Below are positions 3,068-37,417 of a stretch of 39,015 bases of DNA, piece by piece. The DNA is from Candidatus Aenigmatarchaeota archaeon (GTDB lineage Archaea; Aenigmatarchaeota; Aenigmatarchaeia; GW2011-AR5): positions 1 to 39,015 of the forward strand of contig JAGVVX010000007.1 of NCBI GenBank assembly GCA_018304565.1, in the 5' to 3' direction. A program made the translations under genes and the position numbers. Under the pieces are notes generated by a model, which searched no databases, was not told the DNA's origin, and saw nothing but the letters and a program-made list of their open reading frames with translations. Position 1 is the stretch's first letter. Every line of letters begins with the position of its first letter.

Positions 3068-3121
3068 ACCAATACCTAGATATACAATAATAAAAGGAAA
3101 TTAAAATAAAAAAGAACAAGA

Positions 3122-3343
3122 TTAATCCTGATTATAAGGCAAAGCTGGCGGATCTTTTGTACCTCGCATGCGGGCTCTTAGACCAGGCGTACGAGCCCAG
3201 ATAAAAGATGGCTTTTTGCTATCACCGTCTTGTGGAGCCATTCTATACGCTCTACCGCCTTCAGGTAACGTAAGTCTTCCTGGTTCTCTTGGAGCAAACC
3301 CCTCATTCAGGTACCCCATGTCTGCATCTACCATTTTCTTCAT
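3122..3343 (-). CDS. Small hypothetical protein (73 aa, G/P/R-rich)
   Basis: GGGAGG Shine-Dalgarno-like sequence abuts the first ATG and sits 9 nt before the second in-frame ATG. Locally GC-rich. No family recognised. A competing + strand ORF (3168..3383) looks less protein-like. Confidence 0.35.
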   Translation of the reverse strand: MKKMVDADMGYLNEGFAPREPGRLTLPEGGRAYRMAPQDGDSKKPSFIWARTPGLRARMRGTKDPPALPYNQD

Positions 3344-7723: not shown

Positions 7724-7780
7724 GATATCAATCTTGTTTATTCATATTTTAAAAGTAAAGAAAAAAGCATATTTATACGA

Positions 7781-7903
7781 GGAATACCACCTGTCTTTAG
7801 GCGGCGGTATTATTATTCGTGGTATTCCGGTATAAAAGAATCCACATGTGTTATTAGTGGTATTTCACAGAAATACCACCATCTTCAGGCCGTGGATTCT
7901 TTT
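7781..7903. promoter_or_regulatory. Palindromic module pair in the pheS/glyS divergent intergenic region (R1 copy 7781-7833, R2 copy 7834-7903)
   Basis: R1: GGAATACCAC-N28-GTGGTATTCC followed by GGTAT. R2: nested AAAAGAATCCAC...GTGGTATTTC-ACA-GAAATACCAC...GTGGATTCTTTT. Read on the minus strand, R1 is followed by TCGTATAAATAT (TATA-like) about 45 nt before the pheS ATG. Confidence 0.6.
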
Positions 7904-7930
7904 TATAAAACTTCTTGGGAAAGTTAGTTC

Positions 7931-9430
7931 ATGTCTAGCGCAGAGAAAATAGAAGACATAGCAAAACGCAAAGGTTTCTTCTGGCTTTCTTCGGAAATAT
8001 ACGGCGGCATGTCGGGTTTCTACGACTATGGCCATCTGGGCGCCTTAATGAAAAGGAAATGGGAAAACCTTTGGCGCAGTTATTTCCTCTCACTTGACGA
8101 TAATTTCTATGAAATATCGCCTGCAACAATAATGCCGGAAGGCGTCTTTGTCGCGTCTGGGCATTTGGAAAGTTTTGTAGACCCCGTTGTAAAATGCAAG
8201 AAATGCGGCCACATGGAACGGGCTGACCATATACTTGAAGAGGAGCTCAAGGAAAACTTTGAGGGCGTATCAAGTGAAGAACTTGAAAAGCTCATAAAGC
8301 AGCACGGGATAAAATGCAGCAAATGTCGGGGCCCTTTGGAAGAAGTAGGCACTCTAAATATGATGTTTCCTCTGAATGTAGGCACAACAAAAGTAACCAA
8401 GGCGTATCTTGTTCCTGAGACAGCCCAGGAAGCTTTTGTGAATTTCAAAAGGCAGTTCGAAGTCTTGAGAAAGCAGCTGCCTTTGGGCCTTGCTGTAGTA
8501 GGAAAAGCCTACAGGAATGAGATATCACCTAGAAACCTTTTGCTGCGCATGCGGGAGTTTACTCAGGCAGAACTTCAGATTTTTTTCGATCATGATAACG
8601 TTGGCGAACATGAAGAATTTGATGAAATAAAAGACTACAAATTGTGTTTATTCCCTACCGCCAACAAACAAACAGGCAAAGTTGAAGAGGTATCTTGTTG
8701 GGCTATTATTGAAAAGATGGACCTGCCAAAATTCTATGTCTATCATCTAGCTAAGATACAGCAGTTCTACTTGGATATACTGAAAATACCAAAAGAAAAA
8801 TTCAGGCTTCGAGAACTGTCTGAAGAAGAACGGGCTTTTTACAATAAAATCCATTGGGATATAGAGGTCGAACTAAATGATCTGGGTTTTAAGGAGTTAG
8901 GCGGTTGCCACTACAGGACCGATCATGATCTAAGCGGCCATCAAAAAATATCAAAACAAGACATGACAGTGAACATAGAAGGAAAAGAAATCCTTGCACA
9001 CGTCCTGGAACTTTCCTTTGGTGTAGACAGGAACATTTACGCCCTGCTTGACATAGCTTATGCCGAGGAAAAAGATCGCACTGTATTAAGGCTTCCTTTT
9101 GGTGCCGCACCTTATGATGCAGCCATACTTCCACTTGTAAATAAAGAAGGCATGCCGGGCCTTGCTGAAAAAATAAAAGATGTCCTGAAAGCGAAAGGCT
9201 TCACCGTATTTTATGACTATTCCGGCTCGATAGGCCGCCGTTATCGCCGTATGGATGAAATAGGCACGCCTTTCTGCATTACAGTAGACACAGGCTCTCT
9301 CAGCAGCAAGGACGTAACTATTCGCGACAGAGATTCAATGAAGCAGATACGGGTAGGAATAGAACACCTTCCAATGGTTTTGGAACAACTGATAAATTAC
9401 AGGATAGAATTCACAGAAGCTGAGAAATGA
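7931..9430 (+). CDS. glyS: Glycyl-tRNA synthetase (archaeal/eukaryal alpha2 type)
   Basis: 499 aa. N-terminal KRKGFFWLSSEIYGGMSGFYDYGHLG signature. Class II motifs. C-terminal anticodon-binding domain pattern. Confidence 0.9.
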   Translation: MSSAEKIEDIAKRKGFFWLSSEIYGGMSGFYDYGHLGALMKRKWENLWRSYFLSLDDNFYEISPATIMPEGVFVASGHLESFVDPVVKCKKCGHMERADHILEEELKENFEGVSSEELEKLIKQHGIKCSKCRGPLEEVGTLNMMFPLNVGTTKVTKAYLVPETAQEAFVNFKRQFEVLRKQLPLGLAVVGKAYRNEISPRNLLLRMREFTQAELQIFFDHDNVGEHEEFDEIKDYKLCLFPTANKQTGKVEEVSCWAIIEKMDLPKFYVYHLAKIQQFYLDILKIPKEKFRLRELSEEERAFYNKIHWDIEVELNDLGFKELGGCHYRTDHDLSGHQKISKQDMTVNIEGKEILAHVLELSFGVDRNIYALLDIAYAEEKDRTVLRLPFGAAPYDAAILPLVNKEGMPGLAEKIKDVLKAKGFTVFYDYSGSIGRRYRRMDEIGTPFCITVDTGSLSSKDVTIRDRDSMKQIRVGIEHLPMVLEQLINYRIEFTEAEK

Positions 9431-9437
9431 GCCTTAA

Positions 9438-10535
9438 CTAACCTTTCATTCTTCCTCTTTTCTTTTGTGTTCTCTGCTTTTCAAACTTCTTGAAGAATTC
9501 CCTTTCCAGATTTTTAAGAGATTGCTGCATGACAGTAACATAATTCCATCCATAAGCCTTTGTCGAGATGAAGGTGCCTAGCTGCGTAGGCAGTTGGGCA
9601 CTCACTGAATATTTTGTTTTGCCGCCCTCTTTCTTATGTCTCTCAACCATAATTTTTAGCGGTTGTATTTCAGTCGCTCTTGATATTTTTTTCAACATGA
9701 TTTCCGCTTCTTTCTGGGTCTTTTCAGCGTGTTCTGCGTCGTTTTTATCTAAACCTGTTATTTGCACATATGCAAATTTCCTTGGCTTGACAAGCATCCG
9801 CAGCACATCCTTGGGAGTTATTATTTTTAACGAGCCGTTTTCGATCAGCACCTCTTCATGCTGCCTTAATTTTTCCAGTATTTGCTCGTTCTTCGCGTTG
9901 GCTTTGAGAACCACCGGTTCCCTCATGATAGCTGTTACAAGTGTTTCATCTATGTTCAGAGATTCTTTGTAACCCCTGTCTTTCATTCTGCCTTCACGCC
10001 CTGCAAATTTCTGTTTGCCTTCGACTATCTTTATGAGTTCTATTGTACCCACCACGCCTACGCATTTTCCGTTGTTTACTACAGGCACCCTTGAAAGATT
10101 TTCGTAAGACATGATATGCTTTACTTTTCCTACGTTATCTTTTTCCTCAACAACAACAGCCTCTTTTCCTTCTAAGCCTGAGTTTATCTTCACGTGCTTG
10201 ATGACATCGTTCTCTGACAAAATTCCGCGCAATTCTGTATCAAAAACCGGCAACGCACGCATATTTGAACCGAGTATAAGCTCTATTGCATCTTCTGTAC
10301 TCGCTTCCGGGGAAATTACAGGACAATAGTTCATGAGGGTAGAAACCTTTGTTGAGGCAGGATCGACCTCTTTTTTCACAATACTTTCGAGTGTTATCAT
10401 TCCAGCCACCTGACTCTTGTTTAGCACAGGCAGCTGGTGAATCTTGTAGTTTTTCATCTTGGCAAGCGCAGATGATACGGGATCATCGACTGAACAAACA
10501 ACAACATTCTTCGCCATTATTTCTTTGACTTTCAT
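9438..10535 (-). CDS. Four-CBS (two Bateman modules) protein with C-terminal RaiA/HPF-like domain
   Basis: Residues 1-250 show four CBS-like repeats (hydrophobic-xx-P-V-hydrophobic cores). Residues ~255-350 follow the beta-alpha-beta-beta-beta-alpha pattern of ribosome hibernation factors (VQITG..., LKIMVERHKK, KYSVSAQL, GTFISTKAYG, SLKNLEREFFKKFEK). Confidence 0.6.
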   Translation of the reverse strand: MKVKEIMAKNVVVCSVDDPVSSALAKMKNYKIHQLPVLNKSQVAGMITLESIVKKEVDPASTKVSTLMNYCPVISPEASTEDAIELILGSNMRALPVFDTELRGILSENDVIKHVKINSGLEGKEAVVVEEKDNVGKVKHIMSYENLSRVPVVNNGKCVGVVGTIELIKIVEGKQKFAGREGRMKDRGYKESLNIDETLVTAIMREPVVLKANAKNEQILEKLRQHEEVLIENGSLKIITPKDVLRMLVKPRKFAYVQITGLDKNDAEHAEKTQKEAEIMLKKISRATEIQPLKIMVERHKKEGGKTKYSVSAQLPTQLGTFISTKAYGWNYVTVMQQSLKNLEREFFKKFEKQRTQKKRGRMKG

Positions 10536-10643
10536 ACTCAGGATACCACCTATCTTTAGATGCTGGAGGAAACCATTAAACCATCAGTAATTACAAGTGG
10601 TTTCCTGGTATCACAACCATCGTTTGAAAACGATGGTTGTGAT
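10536..10643 (-). promoter_or_regulatory. Upstream cassette A (inverted copy of cassette B at 35305-35406), directly abutting the CBS/HPF-like gene start
   Basis: Read toward the gene it has three parts. First, the 16-bp palindrome ATCACAACCATCGTTT/AAACGATGGTTGTGAT plus ACCAGGAAACCAC. Then a ~35-nt variable AT-rich (TATA-like) spacer. Then ATCTAAAGATAGGTGGTATCCTGAGT-ATG. The proximal 26 nt is identical to cassette B, and the distal ~47 nt is near-identical. Confidence 0.7.
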
Positions 10644-10709
10644 GTCAATCATCGTAGCAGATGTATTTCCTCTCTCAGATATAAATAAATTAGTTAGATA
10701 TGAGCTAAA

Positions 10710-10958
10710 ATGACAGTTATTGACGTCAGGCAGACTATTTGCAGGGCAGAAATAGTAGATATCGCAAGAAGGCGCGGTTATTCATACAGGCTATTGGAGC
10801 CCGGAACGGGTGTGCTGATGAAAGGGGAAGACGTTTTGTATCAGGCTTTTACAGGAAGCGACAGCAACGGCTACAGTGTCGTGAGATTGAGATTTTTTGG
10901 CGGAAAAGGAGAAGAAGACAAAGAACTGGAAGGCGAACTATTTTCAATAAACATTTAA
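10710..10958 (+). CDS. Hypothetical protein (82 aa)
   Basis: Balanced composition. ATATAAATAAAT TATA-like box about 25 nt upstream of the ATG. The overlapping frame 10739..10990 is R-rich and looks like an off-frame artefact. No family recognised. Confidence 0.4.
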   Translation: MTVIDVRQTICRAEIVDIARRRGYSYRLLEPGTGVLMKGEDVLYQAFTGSDSNGYSVVRLRFFGGKGEEDKELEGELFSINI

Positions 10959-11000
10959 GATGCCACTTGCCTTCAGGCCGTGGTCATTGAAAAACACCCT

Positions 11001-11713: not shown

Positions 11714-12487
11714 TTATTCCTTGAGATATTTGCTAAACCACACGTTCATTTCCTTCAAAATCATATTGAGATCCTGTATTTTGTCGCCTATAGAGTGGTC
11801 TGCCCCCTTGATTACAATTAACTTTTTTTGTGATTTGATATTTCTGTAGTACAGTTGTGAATGAGTAACTGGCACAACATCATCTTTATCGCCATGTATG
11901 ACAAGAACAGGACATTTTATTTTCTTTGATAGTCTGCCCATATCATATTTCTGCCTGTCAGTAATGAAATTGTAATTAAGCGGCTTCTTTTTCCTTTTCC
12001 AGCCTTCAGCCCTTACAGCATAATATCTAAAACCAGTTTCTTTCCAACTTTTCATTGCTTCTTTATCACGCATTATTTCCGTGTCGTCTAATCTGAAAGG
12101 TGCTGCAATTGGAACAGCAGCATCTATCTTGTTCAGTGCCGCATATATCATTAGTACATTTCCACCAAGGCTGGTGCCTGCCATACCTATACCCATGGAC
12201 AGCTTCTTCTTTTTCAGAAATTCAACTGCTGCTCTGGTGTCGTCTAGACATTTCGTGACAGTGAAATCTTTGAAATCGCCTTGGCTTTCTCCACAACCAG
12301 AAAAATCAAATCGCAAGGCGACAAAGCCTTTTTTGCTCAAGAACTCGCACCATTCTTCCTTTTTCACTTTACTGCTTGTAAATCCATGACATACGATTAC
12401 AGCCGGCGCCGGCACCTTCTGAGGCAGGTGCAAAATGCCGCAAAGCCTTTCTTTGTGCTTATTCTTGAAGAAAACTTTTTTCTGCAT
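11714..12487 (-). CDS. Alpha/beta hydrolase (dienelactone hydrolase/S9-like), paralog of 37418..38188
   Basis: Nucleophile elbow GTSLGG, HGDKDDVVP acid region, GADH histidine. Start moved to the internal ATG (MQKKVFF), because a TATA-like GTATAAGCAT lies right at the track start and the paralog starts MQKVQF. Confidence 0.8.
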   Translation of the reverse strand: MQKKVFFKNKHKERLCGILHLPQKVPAPAVIVCHGFTSSKVKKEEWCEFLSKKGFVALRFDFSGCGESQGDFKDFTVTKCLDDTRAAVEFLKKKKLSMGIGMAGTSLGGNVLMIYAALNKIDAAVPIAAPFRLDDTEIMRDKEAMKSWKETGFRYYAVRAEGWKRKKKPLNYNFITDRQKYDMGRLSKKIKCPVLVIHGDKDDVVPVTHSQLYYRNIKSQKKLIVIKGADHSIGDKIQDLNMILKEMNVWFSKYLKE

Positions 12488-12566
12488 AAAATCGCCCGGT
12501 TGCCTGTGATTTGTAACTTTGTACTGCAGCTGGGTAGTTCTTGTATCCATAATTATGCTTATACAA

Positions 12567-12704
12567 GGAATACCACCAGCCTTTAGACGGTGATATTATT
12601 AGTGGTATTCCGGTATGCTCAGAAAGCAAAGCTTTCTGGCATGCCAAAATTGCTCTGCAATTTTGAGCATAAGAGGATCCACAAATAAGATTTGTGGATC
12701 CTCT
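12567..12704. promoter_or_regulatory. Palindromic module array in the hydrolase/trmY divergent intergenic region
   Basis: R1 copy at 12567-12616 (GGAATACCAC-N25-GTGGTATTCC-GGTAT, ~85% identical to 7781-7833). Hairpin ATGCTCAGAAAGC-AAA-GCTTTCTGGCAT at 12615-12642. Hairpin CAAAATTGC-TCT-GCAATTTTG at 12645-12665. 16-bp perfect palindrome AAGAGGATCCACAAAT-AAG-ATTTGTGGATCCTCTT at 12670-12704. Confidence 0.65.
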
Positions 12705-12732
12705 TTATAAGCATCTGCGTTATTTTTTAATT

Positions 12733-13361: not shown

Positions 13362-13610
13362 TTATTTGGATTCTGAGCATCCGTTATTTCGGCACACACA
13401 TGTTAACACAATATCTGGATTATCCGGGCCACATTTAGCTATAGAAGCATATGCAACAGTCGTACATCTATCACAAAACTCTACGCAGTCCGCATCTCTG
13501 TTGCAAGAAAGTGTATTTGTTAAATTCTTTTGCGATCCAGTAGAAAGCGCATAAATTAAAACAACAACTAAGATAGTTATTGCAACAATCACTCCAGTTT
13601 GTTTCTTCAT
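13362..13610 (-). CDS. Small membrane-anchored or secreted cysteine-rich protein (82 aa, 8 Cys)
   Basis: N-terminal hydrophobic helix (GVIVAITILVVVLIYAL) followed by a Cys-rich ~55-aa domain. No family recognised. Confidence 0.5.
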   Translation of the reverse strand: MKKQTGVIVAITILVVVLIYALSTGSQKNLTNTLSCNRDADCVEFCDRCTTVAYASIAKCGPDNPDIVLTCVCRNNGCSESK

Positions 13611-13669
13611 TGTTACTATCTTACAAAACAGAAATATATATATATGTATACAAGATCGAAGTATTGTTT

Positions 13670-14392
13670 ATGATTACTCAAAATACACCTCTTCTTAAAA
13701 TAAATGAAGATATTGCAGAGTTCGTTGGCGCTTTAATTGGAGACGGATATATTTACACTAACAAAAACAAATATATCATAGGATTTACTGGAAATCCTAT
13801 CACAGATAAAGAATATTATGAATATCTAAGAAGATTGATAAATATAGCTTGGAAAAAAGAAGTCAAAATAAAATTAAGAGGGAGAGGCATTAGAATTGTT
13901 ATTAATTCTAAGAATATAGTTAATTTTTTGATAAATGAAATACAAATTAAACACGGAATCAATAAAAGCGAATCTGTAGTAATACCAGAAGTCATGACCA
14001 AAGACTGGAGTTTGACTAAATTAGTAATAAGAGGTATTGTTGATACAGATGGCTCTGTTTTTGTTTCTAAAAAGCCCGGCATAGATATGTACCCTTCTAT
14101 AGAAATTACAACATCGAGCCCTGAATTAGCTTTTCAACTAAGGAATATCCTATTAAGCCGTGGTTTTAGAGTTGCGAAAATATGGAGTTATAAATCTAAA
14201 TTAAGTAAAAGAATTTCTTATAAAGTTCCTCTAAACGGACTTGAAAATGTTGGTAAATGGTTAAAAGAAATAGGCTTTTCCAATCCTTACAAACTGAAAA
14301 GAGCAAAAGAAATATGGGATGGGAGGGATTTGAACCCTCGACATTCCCGACGTAACACAAAAGTGTTATGCTCCACGGTTCCTGCTCAGTAG
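13670..14392 (+). CDS. Free-standing double-motif LAGLIDADG homing endonuclease-like protein
   Basis: Two LAGLIDADG motifs (FVGALIGDGYI and VIRGIVDTDGSV). Start taken at the internal ATG (MITQNTPLL). The last ~25 codons read antisense through the 3' part of the convergent tRNA gene. Confidence 0.85.
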   Translation: MITQNTPLLKINEDIAEFVGALIGDGYIYTNKNKYIIGFTGNPITDKEYYEYLRRLINIAWKKEVKIKLRGRGIRIVINSKNIVNFLINEIQIKHGINKSESVVIPEVMTKDWSLTKLVIRGIVDTDGSVFVSKKPGIDMYPSIEITTSSPELAFQLRNILLSRGFRVAKIWSYKSKLSKRISYKVPLNGLENVGKWLKEIGFSNPYKLKRAKEIWDGRDLNPRHSRRNTKVLCSTVPAQ

Positions 14393-14447
14393 GACTTCAG
14401 CTTCACATCTTTCGATCGTGTGCTCTCCCATGCTGAGCTACCATCCC
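14315..14447 (-). tRNA. Intron-containing tRNA, class II-like (long variable arm); tentative Ser(CGA) with ~50-nt intron at 37/38
   Basis: Minus strand: acceptor GGGATGG/CCATCCC+A. D arm GCTC-AGCATGGGA-GAGC. T arm GAGGG-TTCAAAT-CCCTC. The best anticodon arm is ACACG-AT-CGA-A|intron|T-TGTGT followed by a 15-nt variable arm. The isotype is uncertain: the position-26 spacing is awkward, and discriminator A is unusual for Ser. Confidence 0.65.
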
Positions 14448-14890: not shown

Positions 14891-14998
14891 TCTCGAACCG
14901 CCGACCCTCACGTCTCTGTCCTGAGATTTATCTGTGTCCCGAAGAACTCCGTTCTTCAAGATAACAGCGTGATGCTCTACCTGCTGAGCTATCGAGGC
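14891..14998 (-). tRNA. tRNA-Asn(GTT)-like 5' portion (acceptor 5' strand through T-loop, with ~48-nt intron at 37/38) lacking any 3' T-stem/acceptor strand; split-tRNA half or relic
   Basis: Minus strand: GCCTCGA-TA-GCTC-AGCAGGTA-GAGC-A-TCACG-CTGTTA|intron|A-CGTGA-GGGTC-GGCGG-TTCGAG, then AAGCCCTTT... The expected CCGCC-TCGAGGC is not found in the following ~450 nt or elsewhere in the window by eye. Confidence 0.55.
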
Positions 14999-32194: not shown

Positions 32195-32285
32195 GGGCTT
32201 GTAGTCTAGCGGCTATGACTTTTTATTAGTAGAATACGCTACCCTCACATGGTAGAGATCCCCAGTTCGAATCTGGGCAAGCCCA
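32195..32285 (+). tRNA. tRNA-Val(CAC) with ~18-nt non-canonical intron between D stem and anticodon stem (about 32220-32237, position 25/26)
   Basis: Acceptor GGGCTTG/CAAGCCC+A. D arm GTCT-AGCGGCTA-TGAC. Then TTTTTATTAGTAGAATAC. Then G-CTACC-CTCACAT-GGTAG-AGATC-CCCAG-TTCGAAT-CTGGG. Confidence 0.75.
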
Positions 32286-32944
32286 TACATTTTCAAATAC
32301 TTTCTTTTTGAAAGAGCTTGTTTTATCCGTTTTTTATTTTTGAATCCTATATTTACAATATAATTGTGAATATCTTGTTTTCTTTGCAAGGATATGCGCC
32401 ATATAACCCTTCTTTTATAATCACGTTTTTTATTGGTAAAAGAATATATTGTAGGAGAAAATCCTAACATTTTTAATAGAGACTTTATTTCGTAAGCAAA
32501 AATTTTGTTTGTGCAGTTCCACGATAAAATCAGATAATAACTATTACCACTTTCACGCCAATATACAGTCCCATCTGTATCAATTAAACCACGTAAAAAG
32601 TTTTTACCACATATTTTACTTGAAAATACAAATTTAGGTACTCTAAGTTTATCTAACTTTGGGCCTTTTGGAAAGCCAGTCTTTAATAAAAGATTGTAAG
32701 TATTTTTACAAGCTATTCTTAATTCAATGACATTATAAGGATCGCCTCTTTTTACAATACGAAAAATATGGAAATCAAAAACTTTCGCATATAACTTCTT
32801 GACGTAATTGAAATATTGTTTCTCGGTGCTCGATGTTCCGTATCCGACTTCATTTGGTTTAGATGCAAGCCAACCATCACCTGCATGAATACCACATAAT
32901 TCAGCATAGTTTCCTATTAAGCTTCTATCGACTAATCTAACCAT
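32213..32944 (-). CDS. Free-standing double-motif LAGLIDADG homing endonuclease-like protein (paralog of 13670..14392)
   Basis: Motifs ELCGIHAGDGWL and FLRGLIDTDGTV. The last ~24 codons read antisense through the tRNA-Val body (stop in the D-loop). Confidence 0.85.
   Translation of the reverse strand: MVRLVDRSLIGNYAELCGIHAGDGWLASKPNEVGYGTSSTEKQYFNYVKKLYAKVFDFHIFRIVKRGDPYNVIELRIACKNTYNLLLKTGFPKGPKLDKLRVPKFVFSSKICGKNFLRGLIDTDGTVYWRESGNSYYLILSWNCTNKIFAYEIKSLLKMLGFSPTIYSFTNKKRDYKRRVIWRISLQRKQDIHNYIVNIGFKNKKRIKQALSKRKYLKMYGLAQIRTGDLYHVRVAYSTNKKS
32263..32287 (+). repeat. Direct repeat copy 1 (inside tRNA-Val: T-stem to 2 nt past the discriminator)
   Basis: CAGTTCGAATCTGGGCAAGCCCATA, identical to 33018-33042. 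Confidence 0.85.
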
Positions 32945-33017
32945 TTTATTAAGATTGATAAAATTTGATATAAACTTATAGCCTTTTTATTGTACAGATT
33001 TCAAGATATAAGCTAAA

Positions 33018-33042
33018 CAGTTCGAATCTGGGCAAGCCCATA
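33018..33042 (+). repeat. Direct repeat copy 2: orphan tRNA-Val 3' end fragment
   Basis: CAGTTCGAATCTGGGCAAGCCCATA, 755 bp downstream of copy 1. The two copies bracket the LAGLIDADG gene and its upstream region. Confidence 0.85.
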
Positions 33043-33076
33043 AAACCCTTAAAAACTCTGGGTTTATCTTGATACA

Positions 33077-34114
33077 ATGGCTGTTGCTTCTGCGCCCGGG
33101 AAAGTTCATTTGATAGGTGAGCATGCGGTTGTCTACGGAGAACCGGCTATATTTGCAGCTGTTGGAATGCGAACATTCGTTACAGCAGAAAAGTCGGATA
33201 GAGTCGGATACAAAGATAAACGATGGGGCCACAACGATTCCTGGTCTCTTGAAGACGTCGTGGCTGCAACAGATGAAGTTGTTGGGTTGTGGAACGCGTG
33301 CGCGCAAAAGCAAGAGTTTTCTGAGCTTTTTTCTAATATAAAGGCAAACAGCTATGAGAACTACAAAAAGGCCGCTATCGGGGCAGCTATGAAAAATCTA
33401 GGAATTAACGGCGGAATTTCCATCAGTATAGAGTCCCAGTTGCCAGCAGGCGCCGGCCTAGGCTCTTCAGCCTCTCTTTCGGTAGCCGCCGTAAATGCAA
33501 TAGCCGCCGAATACGGAAAAAGCGTTTCGAAAGAAGAGACAAACCGAATCGCCTACGAGCTTGAAAAGATTATTCACGGCACGCCCTCTGGAGGCGACAA
33601 TTCGGCCTGCTGCTATGGTGGCCTTATATGGTTTCAAAAGCCGAATACAATTCTGTCGCTTAAAGAAGAAATACCTTACAAACTTGAAAACTTCATCCTG
33701 GTTTATACAAACCAGCCGGAAAAAACAACCGGTGAATTAGTACAAAGTGTAAGAAATCTGGAAGAAAACCTCAGAAATCACTGCGTTCATGAAATAGGCA
33801 GATTGGCAAAAGATATGCGCGAAGCACTGAAAATCAGGGACCTTGAAACAATGAAAAGAACAATAAACAGGAATCAACAGATACTTGCAAAGCTCGGCGT
33901 GTCAACACCCGAGATTGATGAGATGGTTTCAGCGATTAAAGAAAAGGGCGGGGCTGCCAAGCTTTGCGGTGCGGGCGGCGGCGGCATGGTTCTTTGTTAT
34001 CACGAAAAGAAGAATATATTGCTAGAAACAATCCGCGACTTAGGTTATGAACCTTTGGAGACAGATTTAGCTGTAGAAGGCGTGAAAATTGAAAATGAGA
34101 ACAGCAATACCTAA
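33077..34114 (+). CDS. mvk: Mevalonate kinase
   Basis: APGKVHLIGEHAVVYG N-terminal motif. GHMP motif PAGAGLGSSASL. C-terminal KLCGAGGGG. Confidence 0.85.
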   Translation: MAVASAPGKVHLIGEHAVVYGEPAIFAAVGMRTFVTAEKSDRVGYKDKRWGHNDSWSLEDVVAATDEVVGLWNACAQKQEFSELFSNIKANSYENYKKAAIGAAMKNLGINGGISISIESQLPAGAGLGSSASLSVAAVNAIAAEYGKSVSKEETNRIAYELEKIIHGTPSGGDNSACCYGGLIWFQKPNTILSLKEEIPYKLENFILVYTNQPEKTTGELVQSVRNLEENLRNHCVHEIGRLAKDMREALKIRDLETMKRTINRNQQILAKLGVSTPEIDEMVSAIKEKGGAAKLCGAGGGGMVLCYHEKKNILLETIRDLGYEPLETDLAVEGVKIENENSNT

Positions 34115-35285
34115 AGGCTTTGAAAAAGAATCCAGAGAGATGAAAAGCCTTAACAATAAAATTCTTGCCTTTCTCAGGAAAAGATATAATGTAGAAAAAT
34201 ACCCAAATGTGCCAAAGAAGAAATCCCTTGAAGGTGAAGCATGCGTAGAAGCTTTTCCGATGCAGGGGATTCTAAAGTATCATGGCATGGCTGACTGGCA
34301 CTACCGCACGGCCTTTTTCCCTTCAGTTTCAATGTGTAACGATGCAGCAAAAACCGTTACTTATGTCAGGTTTGATCAGAAACTTGACAAAGACCATGCA
34401 ATAGTAAACGGCAAAAAAATGGAAGGTCGTGAACTCGACAGGATAAAACAAACACTTGACTTCATTCGTAAAATCACCGGCGCAAAAACAAAAGCCTTTG
34501 TCTATTCAAAAAATATCCTGAAAGCCCAGAAAACAGGAAAAGGACTAGGCACAAGCGCATCCGCTTCTGCCGCACTTGCCCTTGCTACGATAGAAGCCGC
34601 TCTTGGGGACGATTACTCTTCAAACAGCAGATTTGTTACAACATGCGCCAGATTTCTTTCGGGCTCTGGATGCCGCTCAGCAGCCGGCGGCGTAGCGCTG
34701 TGGCTTTCCTACCCGGGCATCGACCACGAGGATTCTTTTGCTATAAGGCTTGATAGCAAGCAGCAGTTCAAGGATGTAGATCTAATAACAGTCCCTGTAG
34801 ACTCAAGAATAGGCCTGAAAACAGAAATGGCACATAAAGACGCACCGAAATCGCCTTTTTTCAAGACGTGGATGAGCCTGAGAGAAAAACACATCTGGAA
34901 GATTTTTGATGCTGTAAGCAAGAAAAATTGGAAAAAGTTGGGTGAGCTTGCTGAGCTGGATACAATACTTCTCCATGGAACGACAATGAGCGGCGGCGAC
35001 AGGAAACTGATTGGATGGGAACCCGAGACTATAAAATTAATGCGCGCTGCAAATGATTTGCGTGAAAGCAGTGTGCCTGTCTATTATTCTATTGATACAG
35101 GGCCTACAACCGTGCTTATTACGCAGGAAAAATACTCAAGAGAAGTTGTTAGTCATATAGAATCTCTGGGTTTCACCGACATCGTAACGGGAAAAATAGC
35201 CGGGCCTGCAGGAACTATAAGTAAATTACAAGGAGAAAAAGAATTTGTTATTTCATTAGATGATGTTTCCGGTCAGCTTAAATAA
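34089..35285 (+). CDS. Diphosphomevalonate decarboxylase-family protein (likely phosphomevalonate decarboxylase, given IPK and no PMK nearby)
   Basis: GHMP-superfamily motif GKGLGTSASASAALALA. MDD-like N-terminus (EAFPMQGILKYHG). Start uncertain (34089, 34095 or 34140). Confidence 0.7.
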   Translation: MKMRTAIPKGFEKESREMKSLNNKILAFLRKRYNVEKYPNVPKKKSLEGEACVEAFPMQGILKYHGMADWHYRTAFFPSVSMCNDAAKTVTYVRFDQKLDKDHAIVNGKKMEGRELDRIKQTLDFIRKITGAKTKAFVYSKNILKAQKTGKGLGTSASASAALALATIEAALGDDYSSNSRFVTTCARFLSGSGCRSAAGGVALWLSYPGIDHEDSFAIRLDSKQQFKDVDLITVPVDSRIGLKTEMAHKDAPKSPFFKTWMSLREKHIWKIFDAVSKKNWKKLGELAELDTILLHGTTMSGGDRKLIGWEPETIKLMRAANDLRESSVPVYYSIDTGPTTVLITQEKYSREVVSHIESLGFTDIVTGKIAGPAGTISKLQGEKEFVISLDDVSGQLK

Positions 35286-35304
35286 GCTTTGAAAAATTAT
35301 CATT

Positions 35305-35406
35305 ATCAACAACCATCGTCTGAAAACGATGGTTGTGATACCAGGAAACCACAGTTATATTTGTGACTTACTGGTTCCATATCTAAAGATAGGTGGTATC
35401 CTGAGT
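35305..35406 (+). promoter_or_regulatory. Upstream cassette B (inverted copy of cassette A at 10536-10643), abutting the IPK start codon
   Basis: ATCA(A)CAACCATCG...CGATGGTTGTGAT palindrome plus ACCAGGAAACCAC. Then a TATA-like GTTATATTTG. Then ATCTAAAGATAGGTGGTATCCTGAGT-ATG. Confidence 0.7.
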
Positions 35407-36207
35407 ATGACAAAGCCAATAATAATTTTGAAGATTGGCGGCTCGCTTATAGCGCCGAAAACGGCAAAAAAACCCACGGTTGATTTTAAGACACTGAAAA
35501 GAATATGCATGGAAATAGGCTCAGCGTACAAAAAAATAAAAAATAAGAAAAATCTTGTCATAATCCATGGTGCCGGCAACTTTGGCCACCTTATTGCTGC
35601 ACGCACTGGAATTCATAGGGGCATCAAAAGCGAAAAAAATCTTATTGATTTTGCAGAAACGCAGCGATTACAGAACCAATTGAATGTGATAGTTACAAAA
35701 GAGCTTATCAAAAATGATGTACCCGCTTTTCCTTTTCAGTCTTCAGGACACGCAGTTATGGAAAAAGGCAGGCTGAAAAAATTCTCCTTGGCAGCAATAA
35801 ATCAGCTTCTCAAGACAGGCGTTGTTCCTGTTGCTTATGGCGTGCCAGCCTGTGATATACACCAGGGATGTTCAATACTTTCTGGCGATGAGATTGTGCC
35901 ATATCTTGCAAAAAGACTGAAAGCAAAGGAAATAATCCACGCAACAGACGTAGATGGTGTTTTCACGATTGATCCGAAAAAAAGCAGGAAAGCAAGGCTC
36001 ATAAGAATGATAACAAGAAAGAATTTCTACAGCGTCAAGAAAGCACTTTCAGGTTCATTGGGTGTTGATGTTACCGGTGGCATGAAAGAAAAGGTAAGCC
36101 TTTTAAGCCTTAGGGTAAGGGCGCAAATTATAAACGGGAAGAAGAATAACCTTATAAAGAACGCCATACTCGGTAAAAGTAAGCAAGGTACAGTGATAGA
36201 ACTGTGA
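35407..36207 (+). CDS. ipk: Isopentenyl phosphate kinase
   Basis: KIGGSLI N-terminal motif and HGAGNFGH (the IPK-type His-containing Gly loop). Amino-acid-kinase fold length. Start moved to MTKPIII. Confidence 0.8.
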   Translation: MTKPIIILKIGGSLIAPKTAKKPTVDFKTLKRICMEIGSAYKKIKNKKNLVIIHGAGNFGHLIAARTGIHRGIKSEKNLIDFAETQRLQNQLNVIVTKELIKNDVPAFPFQSSGHAVMEKGRLKKFSLAAINQLLKTGVVPVAYGVPACDIHQGCSILSGDEIVPYLAKRLKAKEIIHATDVDGVFTIDPKKSRKARLIRMITRKNFYSVKKALSGSLGVDVTGGMKEKVSLLSLRVRAQIINGKKNNLIKNAILGKSKQGTVIEL

Positions 36208-36821
36208 TGCAAACAGAGCATATAGAAGTTGAACGGAGAGCCAGAGGAACATTCCTTCCTCCCGGAGCAGAGCCGCTTTATACTGCACATATATTTGACG
36301 TTTACACTGTTGCTCAGCCTTCTTTAATGGAAAGAATCCGCTGGGCAAGAGTTTCGTATTTCCAACTAGTGAAAAGCCGAAGAGAAGTTACAAGAAAAAC
36401 ATTCACTCATGGAGAATACGTAGAGTCAGAATTGGATGAAAAGCCCACGGCGTATATTGCCCGTCTTCTTAAGAAAGGAGGCTGTCCGCGCGTTATTGTT
36501 GCAGGCAGAAGGCACGCGTATAATGTGCATGGTCTCACCGTGTGCAACGATAGAATTATCAGAGCTACCATGAAAGGAATTGAAGATTTAGGCGCCTGGA
36601 CAGAGATGGAAAGGCTCGTGCATTCAGCAGATGAAATACCCGATGCAAGACAAGAAGTTTATGACGGGTTTTTGAGGGTTGGCGTGGCAAGGGACAGGCT
36701 AGTCATAGAACCTTATCCTGTCTTGAACCTTAAAGCCAACGGCCGTGTTGCTGGCAGATTAGTTTCTACTTCAACTTCTTCCCAAGAGGATGCTTTAGCA
36801 GCTCCTCGACTGAAACAATAA
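36207..36821 (+). CDS. Hypothetical protein (~204 aa) translationally coupled to IPK
   Basis: Its ATG overlaps the IPK TGA (TGATG). It is the only long ORF in this interval. R-rich and GC-richer than its neighbours. The last ~18 codons overlap the convergent IDI gene. Confidence 0.5.
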   Translation: MQTEHIEVERRARGTFLPPGAEPLYTAHIFDVYTVAQPSLMERIRWARVSYFQLVKSRREVTRKTFTHGEYVESELDEKPTAYIARLLKKGGCPRVIVAGRRHAYNVHGLTVCNDRIIRATMKGIEDLGAWTEMERLVHSADEIPDARQEVYDGFLRVGVARDRLVIEPYPVLNLKANGRVAGRLVSTSTSSQEDALAAPRLKQ

Positions 36822-37218
36822 GCCATGGCGTGTAGATTTTCTGGTTTCTTATTATATCTTTCAGCAATTCGCCAAGAGAAACCCATTTGTAGCCATAAGC
36901 GTGCTGTTCACTGGGTTTCAGTTCGCCATTAAACTCTGCTATCAGCAACCGGCAGTGCTCGTTTTCGCATTTCTCGCCGTATTCAGCAAAATAATTGAAA
37001 CCGCCTATATCTTCAACTTTCAGGCTTTCAATTCCCCATTCGCCTAGAAGGAACCGGCTGGCCGCTTCCTGCATCGTCTCGTCCCTGTTGCCAAGGTGTA
37101 ATGGATGGCTTGCGCCTGCCAGGTCCCACAGCCTGTCAAAAAGCCTGTGCTTCCTGTGCTGGAGAAGTATTTTCCTGTCGCTGTTGTAAATCAACATTGT
37201 GAAGGTCCCCTTTTTCAT
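36766..37218 (-). CDS. idi: Nudix-fold protein, likely short type-1 isopentenyl-diphosphate isomerase
   Basis: WDLAGASHPLHLGNRDETMQEAASRFLLGEWGI, ENEHC and TPW segments parallel the type-1 IDI segments (W.N..C.HP, ENEVC, SPW). Adjacent to the mevalonate genes. Confidence 0.6.
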   Translation of the reverse strand: MKKGTFTMLIYNSDRKILLQHRKHRLFDRLWDLAGASHPLHLGNRDETMQEAASRFLLGEWGIESLKVEDIGGFNYFAEYGEKCENEHCRLLIAEFNGELKPSEQHAYGYKWVSLGELLKDIIRNQKIYTPWLIVSVEELLKHPLGKKLK

Positions 37219-37273
37219 CTACAAGCAGAAGCATTTGTTCTTCCATATAAGCACCAGTAACGATTATAAACAC

Positions 37274-37369
37274 AATCCACCACAAAAATGTGGTGGTATT
37301 TCTTTGAAATACCACAGATCATATATGTGGATTTGTTTATACAGGCAACCATTGTTTAAAAACAACGGT
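37274..37369. promoter_or_regulatory. R2-type nested palindrome plus degenerate ACCATTGTT/AACAACGGT hairpin in the IDI/hydrolase divergent region
   Basis: AATCCAC-N12-GTGGTATTTC-TTT-GAAATACCAC-N11-GTGGATT (37274-37333), the same architecture as 7834-7903. Overlapping CCACCACA-AAAA-TGTGGTGG. ACCATTGTT-TAAA-AACAACGGT at 37348-37369. Confidence 0.65.
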
Positions 37370-37417
37370 ATGCCATGTATCAATAAGGTTTTTATCTTTA
37401 AAGGCCTTCCTTTTAGG

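What the first reader, a model, noticed from the sequence alone, without database searches (positions are those of the whole stretch)
35305..35406. Near-identical ~105-bp upstream cassette placed in front of two unrelated genes (IPK and the CBS/HPF-like gene)
Cassette B (35305-35406, +) and cassette A (10536-10643, -) share three things. First, a distal ~47-nt block with a 13-16-bp palindrome (ACAACCATCG...CGATGGTTGT) and ACCAGGAAACCAC. Second, a variable TATA-containing spacer. Third, a proximal 26 nt that is 100% identical (ATCTAAAGATAGGTGGTATCCTGAGT) and abuts the ATG. That degree of identity in non-coding DNA, against otherwise unrelated flanks, implies recent duplication or mobility of a promoter/5'-UTR module, or strong selection for a common regulator and SD context (AGGTGGT). 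A degenerate third palindrome lies at 37348-37369.
Basis: seen in the sequence. Interest (0 to 1): 0.7.

Follow-up and report, generated by a model that had tools for sequence, protein, structure and literature searches.

The report
Small mobile hairpin element at start codons
The two near-identical upstream cassettes are copies of a small, hairpin-rich mobile DNA element that has spread in one lineage of tiny (DPANN, Aenigmarchaeota) archaea. This subfamily always lands exactly in front of a gene's start codon, where it probably turns a leaderless gene into one with a folded leader and a ribosome-binding site.

Summary
Cassette A (10536-10643, -) and cassette B (35305-35406, +) share a perfect hairpin, the block GATACCAGGAAACCAC, and 26 identical bases abutting the ATG.

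It is neither a two-gene regulon nor a generic promoter feature. The cassettes belong to a family of small non-coding mobile elements in Aenigmarchaeota genomes.

- **More copies in the window:** three further relatives lie at 7778-7907, 12564-12709 and 37265-37377.
- **Clean empty sites in relatives:** three relatives lack the IPK copy and four lack the CBS copy. Empty sites also exist for the other three elements.
- **Type 1 (the cassettes):** found at 10 independent loci in at least 5 named assemblies plus unbinned metagenome contigs. It always faces the same way as the gene and abuts the ATG of unrelated genes.
- **Type 2:** sits inside TATA boxes and rebuilds them on both sides.
- **Structure:** type 1 folds into a hairpin plus a junction, with compensatory changes and a sense-strand bias. 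It ends in AGGTGGT, 9 nt before the ATG.

Most likely mechanism (inferred, not shown): insertion at position +1 of a leaderless gene creates a structured, Shine-Dalgarno-bearing leader. I found no transposase, and the target-site duplication is unresolved (AT, TA or TAT). This is a new variant of a known kind (MITE/REP-like elements).

The parts
35305..35406 (+). Type-1 element copy B, inserted between the original promoter and the ATG of the isopentenyl phosphate kinase (IPK) gene
   Evidence: Read. It scores 112.5 bits against the type-1 covariance model. It is absent from the same site in L005, L006 and L129, where the upstream stop codon and the IPK ATG are 6-20 nt apart. It is present at the orthologous site in L001.
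35309..35336 (+). Left hairpin H1 of copy B (ACAACCATCG / 8-nt loop / CGATGGTTGT)
   Evidence: In other copies the stem changes in a compensating way: ATCG/CGAT becomes ACCG/CGGT or ATCA/TGAT. The orthologous L001 copy has a 35-nt larger loop that contains a second copy of the 3' arm.
35337..35352 (+). Block X (GATACCAGGAAACCAC). It can pair either with the spacer (ACCAG/CTGGT) or with the right end, including the AU of the AUG.
   Evidence: Helix 2 has two pairs with changes on both sides. L016 and L092 each carry two extra hairpins of unrelated sequence inserted at the same point.
35381..35406 (+). Right end of copy B: the 26 nt identical to copy A. It holds a hairpin around CTAAAG and the Shine-Dalgarno-like AGGTGGT (35391-35397), 9 nt before the ATG.
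   Evidence: The 16S rRNA 3' end of a relative that also carries a type-1 copy is the canonical GGATCACCTCCT (L077). AGGUGGU can pair with 7 of those bases, one pair being G-U (inference).
35278..35285 (+). TATA-like box TTAAATAA of the original IPK promoter, overlapping the stop codon of the upstream gene. Its first base lies 27 nt before the first base of the element.
   Evidence: In L005 and L129 (no element) the same box starts 27 and 29 nt before the ATG, the spacing of leaderless genes in this window (my counts). L006 has a similar box at a similar distance. That the promoter now reads into the element is an inference.
35407..36207 (+). IPK gene; true start at 35407
   Evidence: Pfam AA_kinase. 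Homologues are annotated as isopentenyl phosphate kinase of Aenigmarchaeota. The N-terminus M-x-K-P-(I/L/V)-I-(I/V)-L-K-I-G-G is conserved in element-free relatives.
10536..10643 (-). Type-1 element copy A, abutting the ATG of the CBS-domain gene
   Evidence: Read. It scores 108.7 bits against the covariance model. It is absent in L117, L118, L119 and L130, where a GGTG Shine-Dalgarno lies 7-10 nt before the ATG.
10644..11000 (-). 357 nt inserted together with, or next to, copy A. It begins with a degenerate type-2-like left hairpin (CCACGGCCTGAAGGCAAGTGG) and holds an orphan 82-codon ORF on the + strand (10710-10958).
   Evidence: The whole 465 nt (10536-11000) is missing from L117, L118 and L119. 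The ORF has no Pfam hit and no homologue other than itself.
9438..10535 (-). CBS-domain gene downstream of copy A
   Evidence: Pfam CBS. One homologue is annotated CBS domain / ribosome-associated inhibitor RaiA.
7778..7907 (-). Type-2 element inserted in the TATA box between the divergent ProRS-like and PheRS-alpha genes
   Evidence: Read. The empty site in L117 and L118 is GTTT|TATAA...; the filled site has TATAAA on both sides. The type-1 model matches it end to end at E = 4.5e-6. The left TATA starts 29 nt before the ATG at 7931.
12564..12709 (-). Type-2 variant with two extra internal hairpins, inserted in the TATA box between an RNA methyltransferase gene and a hydrolase gene
   Evidence: Read. 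The empty site in L117 is GCT|TATAAGCATAATT. The left TATA starts 29 nt before an ATG that opens a 199-codon ORF.
37265..37377 (+). 113-nt hybrid element. The left half is like type 2; the right-end hairpin is like the type-1 left hairpin.
   Evidence: It is a clean insertion relative to L001, with 100% identical flanks. Empty site GAT|TAT|CAATAAGG; filled site GAT-TAT-[...]-TAT-CAATAAGG.

Best explanation
The two cassettes are copies of one subfamily ('type 1') of a family of small (about 40-190 nt), non-coding, hairpin-rich mobile elements. The family has multiplied in a lineage of Aenigmarchaeota (DPANN archaea).

Shown:
- The elements are insertions. Close relatives have clean empty sites.
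- They occur at many unrelated loci in several genomes.
- Type 1 always lies in the sense orientation with its last base directly before the start codon.
- The sister type 2 lies inside TATA boxes and leaves a TATA box on each side.

Inferred:
- Most genes here are leaderless, with a TATA box starting about 27-29 nt before the ATG. A type-1 insertion at that point leaves the old promoter in place, so transcription now starts at the first base of the element.
- The gene therefore acquires a 100-190-nt leader that folds into a long hairpin plus a multi-helix junction. The leader ends in AGGUGGU, 9 nt before the AUG, and this sequence takes over translation initiation.
- The folded leader, which pairs the Shine-Dalgarno region and the AU of the AUG, probably damps or conditions translation.

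The 26 identical bases are the conserved right end of the element. They are not an operator shared by two genes.

The transposition chemistry is unknown. The junctions fit either a 2-3-bp AT/TA/TAT duplication or a hairpin-guided insertion next to TAT(A/G/C)AA with no duplication.
For: **Insertion polarity**
- IPK site: empty in L005, L006 and L129; filled in the window and L001.
- CBS site: empty in L117, L118, L119 and L130.
- The other three window elements have empty sites with near-identical flanks.
- The syntenic relatives L117-L119 hold no copy at all.

**Family**
- A composite pattern found 14 stretches of DNA in one-genome-per-species contigs. Nine are from archaeal MAGs (four named assemblies). 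A tenth, labelled a WS6 bacterium, carries the element and looks like a misbinned archaeal contig. The other four are chance hits in bacteria.
- A looser pattern found about 25 true copies among 96 metagenome stretches.
- The type-1 covariance model matches type-2 copies end to end at E = 1e-8 to 1e-5.

**Start-codon association**
- All 10 independent type-1 loci end in ...CCTnAG(T/C)ATG, although neither search pattern contained ATG.
- The downstream genes are unrelated: IPK, a CBS-domain protein, a PadR-like regulator, a PIN-like protein, a rhomboid-like protease, and secreted or membrane proteins (family names other than IPK and CBS are my reading of the sequences).

**TATA association of type 2**
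- In 5 of 14 copies with both ends held, a terminal TATA starts 27-29 nt before the ATG of a long ORF.

**Leaderless background**
- Most window genes have a TATA-like box about 22-32 nt upstream and no Shine-Dalgarno. Only a few have GGAGG or GGTG.

**Structure**
- z-scores are -4.9 to -7.3.
- 97% of cells form standard pairs.
- Four pairs change on both sides; 6 of 500 shuffles do as well.
- The covariation score is 0.125 against 0.072 in shuffles; 0 of 500 shuffles reach it.
- The sense strand is more stable in 9 of 10 type-1 copies but only 5 of 14 type-2 copies.

**No known RNA family** matches.
Against: - No transposase or autonomous partner was found. Only about 0.3 Mb of archaeal sequence was available to search.
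- The ends are only imperfect inverted repeats, and the duplication length cannot be fixed. A TA duplication fits 6 of 10 type-1 left junctions. AT fits all, but could simply be part of the element.
- Transcription of the element, and use of AGGTGGT as a ribosome-binding site, are inferred. No expression data exist.
- The same AGGTGGT sits in type-2 copies that are not followed by a gene, so it was not built as a ribosome-binding site.
- Copies were collected with a pattern that fixes CTAAAG...GGTGGTAT, so the invariance of those bases is partly by construction.
- Copies are related by descent, so the shuffle statistics overstate independence.
- Hairpin covariation would also be expected for single-stranded DNA hairpins used in transposition.
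- Copies A and B share the short hairpin form but differ in the spacer, so gene conversion between copies may also have acted.
Confidence: 0.72

Rival explanations
1. The cassette is a dedicated cis-regulatory RNA: a riboswitch, RNA thermometer or protein-binding leader. It hides the ribosome-binding site and start codon and releases them in response to one signal, so the genes behind it form a post-transcriptional regulon. Mobility would only be the way it spread.
For: - The fold is conserved, with compensatory changes. One is ATAC/GTAT becoming ATGC/GCAT, which involves the AU of the AUG.
- Two extra hairpins of unrelated sequence are inserted at the same point in L016 and L092.
- The sense strand is more stable in 9 of 10 copies.
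- The position relative to the ATG is fixed.
- A TATA-like box lies at the right distance upstream of the element in about 6 of 10 copies (my counts).
Against: - The downstream genes share no function.
- The element is absent from orthologous genes in close relatives whose flanks are 90-99% identical, so those genes do not need it.
- The same helices exist in type-2 copies that precede no gene.
- No Rfam family matches.
- The upstream TATA is what one expects anyway after insertion at +1 of a leaderless gene.
Confidence: 0.1
2. The palindromes are operators for a dimeric DNA-binding transcription factor, and the cassette marks a transcriptional regulon.
For: The palindromes are perfect, and the GGTGGTAT/ATACCACC half-sites recur in five promoter regions of the window.
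Against: - The spacing between half-sites is not fixed. The loop is 8 nt in A and B, about 45 nt in the orthologous L001 copy, and intermediate in others.
- Whole hairpins are inserted between the blocks.
- The elements are recent insertions.
- The genes are unrelated.
- Some type-2 copies face the 3' ends of genes.
Confidence: 0.04
3. There is no transposition. A promoter/leader segment was copied between loci by ectopic recombination or gene conversion, helped by short AT-rich microhomologies.
For: - Junction microhomologies vary in length: 2-3 nt at IPK, 3 nt at 37265, and 5-6 nt at the TATA-box sites.
- Copies A and B share a derived short hairpin but have different spacers, which is a mosaic pattern.
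- The L015 copy carries 27 nt of flank that is native to the hydrolase locus.
- The window and L001 are a mosaic of 95-99% and 60-85% identity blocks, so recombination is frequent.
Against: - There are dozens of copies at unrelated loci with the same sharply defined ends.
- Insertion sites are highly specific: always before ATG for type 1 and within TATAA for type 2.
- Copy number differs strongly between close relatives: five in 39 kb here against none in the 18 kb of syntenic L117.
Confidence: 0.1

Closest known systems
Bacterial MITEs that alter neighbouring gene expression, above all the Correia (CREE/NEMIS) elements of Neisseria; also ERIC, RUP and BOX
   Same: - They are about 100-200 nt, non-coding and multicopy, and lie mostly just upstream of genes.
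- They are present or absent between strains.
- They are co-transcribed with the downstream gene and fold into hairpins.
- They supply expression signals. Correia elements carry promoters and an IHF site and are cut by RNase III (review PMC10969869, read).

High MITE densities in other DPANN genomes have been reported (PMC11602168).
   Different: - This element is archaeal.
- Its ends are self-complementary hairpins rather than plain 26-bp inverted repeats.
- A TA duplication is not consistently present.
- One subfamily sits exactly at start codons and another inside TATA boxes.
- The signal supplied would be a Shine-Dalgarno leader for a formerly leaderless gene. The MITE review never mentions 'ribosome binding', 'Shine-Dalgarno' or 'start codon'.
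IS200/IS605-derived palindrome-associated elements (PATEs) and REP/REPIN sequences mobilised by HUH tyrosine transposases (TnpA, RAYT). This comparison rests on my own knowledge of these families.
   Same: - There is a hairpin near each end, in the same orientation and of similar sequence.
- There are no long terminal inverted repeats.
- Insertion is next to a short specific motif: the right flank is always TAT(A/G/C)AA or ATGA.
- Solo hairpin units also exist (L115, L025).
   Different: - No TnpA or RAYT gene was seen in the fetched DNA.
- The conserved flank is on the 3' side of the strand that shows the structural bias.
- Absence of a duplication cannot be established.
Riboswitches and other structured 5' leaders that occlude the ribosome-binding site
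   Same: It is a leader of 100-190 nt with conserved helices and compensatory changes, and the Shine-Dalgarno region and start codon are base-paired.
   Different: - There is no coherent set of regulated genes.
- It is not conserved at orthologous loci.
- No Rfam family matches.
- The same fold occurs in copies that precede no gene.

Membership tests
MITE (generic non-autonomous transposable element) | Short (under about 300 bp), non-coding, and present in several copies in one genome and in related genomes | tested here: met
   Copies run from 42 nt (a minimal single-hairpin copy in L115) to about 190 nt. There are five in this 39-kb window. Copies occur in at least 5 named assemblies and about 25 metagenome contigs.
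MITE (generic non-autonomous transposable element) | Presence/absence polymorphism with precise empty sites in relatives | tested here: met
   Empty sites exist for all five window copies.
MITE (generic non-autonomous transposable element) | Terminal inverted repeats | tested here: inconclusive
   In type 2, TAAAAAGAAT-CCACC at the left and GGTGGTATTCCTTG at the right are about 10/13 complementary (my comparison). Each end is itself a palindrome, so inverted and direct similarity cannot be told apart. The type-1 ends match only weakly.
MITE (generic non-autonomous transposable element) | Target-site duplication of fixed length | tested here: inconclusive
   Junction identities are 2-3, 3, 4, 5 and 6 nt, and all contain AT. 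This fits a 2-3-bp duplication plus a target that resembles the left end, or no duplication at all.
MITE (generic non-autonomous transposable element) | An autonomous insertion sequence with the same ends that encodes the transposase | not testable with these tools
   No left-end/right-end pair further apart than about 190 nt exists in the fetched loci.
IS630/Tc1-mariner-type MITE (Correia-like, Stowaway-like) | TA target and TA duplication at both junctions | tested here: inconclusive
   TA fits the IPK, 37265, 7778 and 12564 sites. However, 4 of 10 type-1 copies have CA at the left junction, and the CBS empty sites (TTTTTCATGAAAG, TTTCAATGAAAG) contain no TA at the insertion point.
IS200/IS605-derived PATE or REP/RAYT element | Subterminal hairpins at both ends, and insertion adjacent to a short conserved motif | tested here: met
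   There are hairpins near both ends of similar sequence (CCACCATCT..AGATGGTGG and ACCACCGTCT..AGACAGGTGGT). The right flank is ATGA in 9 of 10 type-1 loci and TAT(A/C/G)A in all but one type-2 copy.
IS200/IS605-derived PATE or REP/RAYT element | An associated HUH (Y1) transposase gene in the genome | not testable with these tools
   None appears among the Pfam-labelled genes of L001-L006, L117-L119, L129 and L130 or among the 26 window ORFs scanned against Pfam. About 15 window ORFs, and the rest of the genomes, were not examined.
Riboswitch / curated cis-regulatory RNA | Match to a described RNA family | tested here: not met
   At Rfam gathering thresholds only two tRNAs match. Permissive scans of the cassette and of L020 give nothing better than E = 0.2.
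Riboswitch / curated cis-regulatory RNA | Functionally coherent downstream genes, and conservation at orthologous loci | tested here: not met
   The downstream genes are unrelated. The element is absent from orthologous IPK and CBS loci in seven relatives.
Riboswitch / curated cis-regulatory RNA | Conserved secondary structure supported by covariation | tested here: met
   97% of cells are paired, four pairs change on both sides, and the covariation score is 0.125 against 0.072 in shuffles (0 of 500 reach it). Caveats: there are only 10 related sequences, and a DNA hairpin would behave the same way.
Transcription-factor operator (palindromic) | Fixed spacing between half-sites across sites | tested here: not met
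   The loop between the arms ranges from 2 nt (type-2 hairpins) and 8 nt (A, B) to about 45 nt in L001, with intermediate sizes elsewhere.

The most novel reading that the evidence does not exclude
The type-1 element may be a mobile riboregulator with programmable targeting. It would recognise the two core signals of leaderless archaeal genes (TATAAA and TATGAA) through its subterminal sequences, as IS200/IS605 elements recognise their targets. Once inserted at a start codon, it would wire unrelated genes into one structured, ribosome-binding-site-occluding leader that responds to a common cue. That would be a transposon-borne post-transcriptional regulon in a DPANN archaeon.
Probability: 0.1. 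Interest if true: 0.8.

Novelty: new variant of a known kind. Interest (0 to 1): 0.52.

Why it matters
Small non-autonomous mobile elements that carry promoters are well known in bacteria. High densities have been counted in other DPANN genomes, but what they do there is unexplored.

Two features stand out here:
- One subfamily is found only at the first base before a start codon, and a sister subfamily only within TATA boxes. These are the only two sequence signals a leaderless archaeal gene has.
- Both subfamilies rebuild the signal they split.

If the inferred mechanism holds, this is a natural example of converting leaderless genes into Shine-Dalgarno-dependent, structured-leader genes in a single step. 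That bears on how the two modes of translation initiation interchange in archaea. It would also provide a compact portable expression module, and it could explain strain-level expression differences in organisms that cannot be cultured.

There is a practical consequence too. The element misleads gene callers: the public IPK protein is annotated 26 residues too long.

Tried and rejected
- **Known RNA families:** Rfam at gathering and at permissive thresholds gave nothing.
- **C/D-box or H/ACA guide RNA, hammerhead or other small ribozyme:** read by eye. CUGA is not conserved (CCTGAG, CCTAAG and CCTTAG all occur) and no catalytic core motif is present.
- **Origin-recognition boxes:** CCAGGAAAC resembles part of the archaeal ORB (recalled from memory). 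The elements are dispersed in front of many genes, so I rejected this.
- **Integron attC sites:** the flanking genes are core genes in conserved synteny, so I rejected this.
- **Variant anti-Shine-Dalgarno in this lineage:** the 16S 3' end in L077 is canonical.
- **Leaderless core promoter within the 26 nt:** TAAAGATA would lie at -23 to -16, about 6 nt too close to the ATG compared with other genes in the window.
- **Internal TATA in the spacer as the functional promoter:** it is plausible in B (TTATATTT at -52), but L090 and L114 lack it, so it is not a family feature.
- **Viral origin:** all nine pattern hits in IMG/VR contigs are chance or coding matches.
- **The 82-codon ORF next to copy A as a transposition gene:** no Pfam hit and no homologue.
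- **100% identity of the 3' 70 nt between the window and L001 as evidence of selection:** rejected, because the surrounding block is 95-99% identical anyway.
- **Similarity of the right end (reads L-K-I-G-G-I-L) to the IPK motif LKIGGS:** judged coincidental, because type-2 copies share the block.
Full report
**1.

Reading both loci and aligning them confirms the description. Cassette B (35305-35406, +) and cassette A (10536-10643, -) share:
- a perfect 10-bp hairpin, ACAACCATCG-N8-CGATGGTTGT;
- the block GATACCAGGAAACCAC;
- a spacer that differs between them;
- 26 identical bases, ATCTAAAGATAGGTGGTATCCTGAGT, that touch the ATG.

The palindrome occurs twice against 0.00 expected. The repeat finder reports the distal block as 44 nt at 93% identity.

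**2. There are five related elements in the window, not two**

The looser proximal motif TAAAGnnnGGTGGTATyCCT occurs four times against 0.01 expected. Ten of the twelve GTGGTAT/ATACCAC heptamers lie in five intergenic regions. The additional elements are:
- 7778-7907 (-), between the PheRS-alpha and ProRS-like genes;
- 12564-12709 (-), between a hydrolase gene and an RNA methyltransferase gene;
- 37265-37377 (+), between a NUDIX gene and a second hydrolase gene.

**3. Organism**

IPK homologues place the window in Aenigmarchaeota, a DPANN lineage. An orphan protein of the window is deposited as 'Candidatus Aenigmarchaeota archaeon'. Intron-containing tRNAs and a tRNA-splicing endonuclease fit an archaeon.

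**4. The elements are insertions**

- **IPK site.** In L005 (87% identical IPK), L006 (73%) and L129 (69%), the stop codon of the upstream decarboxylase-like gene and the IPK ATG are only 6-20 nt apart (sequences). The sequences are ...GATGATTATGAG......GTATGATTATGG... and ...CTTATCATAATGAAG.... In the window and in L001 the element sits exactly between ...ATT and ATG.
- **CBS site.** L117 (90% identical), L118, L119 and L130 have GGTG(N7-10)ATG and nothing else. The window has 465 extra bases there, the last 108 being cassette A.
- **37265-37377.** L001 lacks the 113 nt, and its flanks are 100% identical.
- **7778-7907 and 12564-12709.** L117 lacks both, again with near-identical flanks.

The 18-kb syntenic stretch of L117 and the loci L118 and L119 contain no copy at all. 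With three to four empty relatives per site, insertion in the window's lineage is the parsimonious direction.

**5. It is a family spread over genomes**

- A composite pattern scanned over one genome per species returned 14 stretches of DNA. Nine are from archaeal MAGs belonging to four named assemblies, two of them labelled Aenigmatarchaeota. A tenth (L015, labelled a WS6 bacterium) also carries the element and is probably a misbinned archaeal contig. The remaining four are chance hits in bacteria.
- A looser pattern over metagenome contigs returned 96 stretches. About 25 are true copies. The rest are mostly methyltransferase coding sequence that reads L-K-P-G-G-I-L.

Two subfamilies emerge.

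*Type 1 (the cassettes)* ends in ...ATCTAAAGATAGGTGGTATCCTnAG(T/C)ATG. I found it at 10 independent loci: window A, window B (orthologous to L001), L008, L013, L016, L020, L077, L090, L092 and L114.

*Type 2* is about 126 nt. Its consensus is TATAAAAAGAATCCACCATCTGAAGATGGTGGTATTTCTGTGAAATACCAC...GGAATACCAC...ACCACCGTCTAAAGACAGGTGGTATTCCTyGTATAAA.

A covariance model built from the ten type-1 copies matches type-2 copies over its whole length at E = 1e-8 to 1e-5. The two types are therefore homologous. None of the pattern hits in viral contigs is a true copy.

**6. Insertion sites are remarkably specific**

*Type 1.* Every locus has the element in the sense orientation with its last base directly before an ATG that opens an ORF. 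Neither search pattern contained ATG. The genes are unrelated: IPK, a CBS-domain protein, a PadR-like regulator, a PIN-like protein, a rhomboid-like protease, and several secreted or membrane proteins. Family names other than IPK and CBS are my reading of the sequences.

*Type 2.* These copies are bracketed by TATAA on both sides. In 5 of 14 copies with both ends held, one terminal TATA starts 27-29 nt before the ATG of a long ORF, for example ProRS in the window and LeuRS in L011. The empty sites show that the target was the TATA box itself: GTTT|TATAAAC and GCT|TATAAGC.

*Background.* Most genes in the window have a TATA-like box about 22-32 nt upstream and no Shine-Dalgarno, so they are probably leaderless. 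A minority have GGAGG or GGTG.

*The IPK case.* In L005 and L129 the TATA box (TTAAATAT, TTTAAATA) starts 27 and 29 nt before the ATG (my counts). In the window the same box (35278-35285) starts 27 nt before the first base of the element. The element has therefore been placed at position +1 of a leaderless gene.

*The CBS case.* This gene was an operon-internal gene with its own GGTG. The common denominator is therefore the start codon, not the transcription start.

**7. Junctions**

The sequence shared by the two junctions is:
- AT or TAT at the IPK site;
- TAT at 37265;
- up to ATGA at the CBS site, assuming an L118-like ancestor;
- TATAA or TATAAA at the two TATA-box sites.

A 2-bp AT is compatible with every junction. 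TA fails at 4 of 10 type-1 left junctions and at the CBS site. The right flank is always ATGA or TAT(A/C/G)A, and the first bases of the element resemble it.

I cannot distinguish two possibilities:
- a short duplication, as with a DDE transposase or a 2-bp crossover recombinase;
- hairpin-guided insertion next to a short motif with no duplication, as in IS200/IS605 or REP elements.

No autonomous partner exists in the DNA I could reach.

**8. Structure**

The type-1 sequences fold far better than shuffles, with z-scores of -4.9 to -7.3, though the antisense strand folds about as well. RNAalifold and my pair counts support three helices:
- H1, formed by the 5' arm and the distal 3' arm.
- A long-range helix, AUACCAGGA with UCCUG-A-GUAU, which includes the AU of the AUG.
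- A hairpin around CUAAAG that contains AGGUGG.

The numbers are as follows:
- 97% of cells form standard pairs.
- Four pairs change on both sides. Examples are UA to CG and GC to AU in H1, and AU to GC and CG to AU in the long-range helix.
- The covariation score is 0.125 against 0.072 in shuffles, and 0 of 500 shuffles reach it.

L016 and L092 each carry two extra hairpins of unrelated sequence at the same point. Two type-2 variants do the same. The sense strand is more stable in 9 of 10 type-1 copies, by 3.6 kcal/mol on average. In type 2 it is more stable in only 5 of 14 copies.

This fits selection on type 1 as RNA. However, the copies are related by descent, and DNA hairpins used in transposition would also covary. 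The same long helix (GATACAGGAATACCAC with GTGGTATTCCTyGTAT) exists in type 2, so it is a family feature and was not designed around the AUG.

**9. Ribosome-binding site**

The 16S rRNA 3' end in L077, a contig that also carries a type-1 copy, is the canonical GGATCACCTCCT. AGGUGGU, 9 nt before the AUG, can pair with 7 of its bases, including one G-U pair. This is an inference.

After insertion a leaderless gene can no longer start translation at a 5'-terminal AUG. This sequence is therefore the obvious replacement. Because type 2 carries it too, this is co-option, not design.

**10. What the identity between A and B means**

- The 26 nt are the conserved right end of the element.
- The window and L001 are 95-99% identical around the IPK gene. 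The identical 3' 70 nt of their orthologous copies therefore says nothing about selection.
- They do differ by a 35-nt indel in the H1 loop. L001 keeps a second copy of the 3' arm, as do most full-length copies; the window has lost it.
- Cassette A has the same short form but a different spacer. A and B are thus linked by recent copying or gene conversion within this lineage.

**11. Comparison with known systems**

- *Function.* The closest analogues are bacterial MITEs such as Correia elements. These lie just upstream of genes, carry promoters, are co-transcribed, and are processed as hairpins (PMC10969869). High MITE densities in other DPANN genomes have been reported (PMC11602168). I found no mention of Aenigmarchaeota MITEs.
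- *Architecture.* The hairpin ends and motif-adjacent insertion resemble IS200/IS605-derived PATEs and REP elements. This rests on my own knowledge, and the defining transposase could not be looked for.
- *Not a riboswitch family member.* There is no Rfam match, no coherent gene set, and no orthologous conservation.

**12. Caveats**

- The collection patterns fix CTAAAG...GGTGGTAT, so the invariance of those bases is partly by construction.
- Transcription and translation effects are inferred.
- The copy-number estimate rests on small samples of each genome.
- Gene calls in metagenome loci are my own crude ORF calls.

**Verdict**

This is a real and non-trivial feature: a new family of hairpin-rich mobile elements in Aenigmarchaeota. 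It is a new variant of a known kind and of moderate interest.

Noticed in passing
window 32195-33042: A LAGLIDADG homing-endonuclease ORF (32213-32944, -) lies immediately 3' of a tRNA-Leu gene (32195-32285, +). The last 25 nt of the tRNA are repeated exactly at 33018-33042. Window 32277-33020 has no counterpart in the close relative L001. This looks like a mobile insertion at a tRNA 3' end.
   Followed up: partly
window 13580-14447: A second LAGLIDADG ORF (13580-14392, +) overlaps an intron-containing tRNA on the other strand (14315-14447, -; Rfam 43.4 bits). A further tRNA hit lies at 14935-14998. ARAGORN did not report either tRNA.
   Followed up: no
window 35329-35406: The ATG inside the 3' arm of the cassette hairpin (35329) is in frame with IPK and no stop codon intervenes. 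The public database protein P0001 is therefore 292 aa, 26 residues too long. Element-free relatives show the true start at 35407.
   Followed up: yes
L015 (LBSF01000001.1), 3057-3234: A contig labelled 'candidate division WS6 bacterium' carries a type-2 element 92% identical over 179 nt to window 12538-12713. The match includes 27 nt of flank that is native to the hydrolase locus. Next to it is a gene with an archaeal-type pilin-like signal peptide (MKGVSPMIAVVLLIAITV). This is probably a misbinned archaeal contig, though cross-domain transfer is not excluded.
   Followed up: partly
window 33021-37205 versus L001 7578-11805: Identity between the two relatives is a mosaic. Long blocks of 95-100% are interrupted by blocks of 60-85%, for example 33121-33520 and 35984-36180. 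This indicates frequent recombination between populations.
   Followed up: partly
window 10644-11000: The 357 nt inserted together with cassette A contain an orphan 82-codon ORF on the + strand (10710-10958) with a TATA-like box upstream. It has no Pfam hit, and its only database match is itself, seen on 17 contigs. The left edge resembles a degenerate type-2 left hairpin.
   Followed up: partly
L025, L032, L046, L112 (e.g. L046 5434-5465): A solo perfect hairpin, AGGATACCACCTCTAAAGCTAGGTGGTATCCT, lies between two convergent genes in other metagenome contigs. It is a single-unit relative of the right-end hairpin. L115 has a similar minimal 42-nt unit flanked by TATAAA on both sides.
   Followed up: no
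window 12487-12550: The ATG at 12550, listed as the start of the first hydrolase gene, lies only 13 nt after the TATA box. The paralogue at 37413 starts MQKV, and an in-frame MQKK lies at 12487. The true start may therefore be 12487, although L117 is called from the upstream ATG.
   Followed up: no
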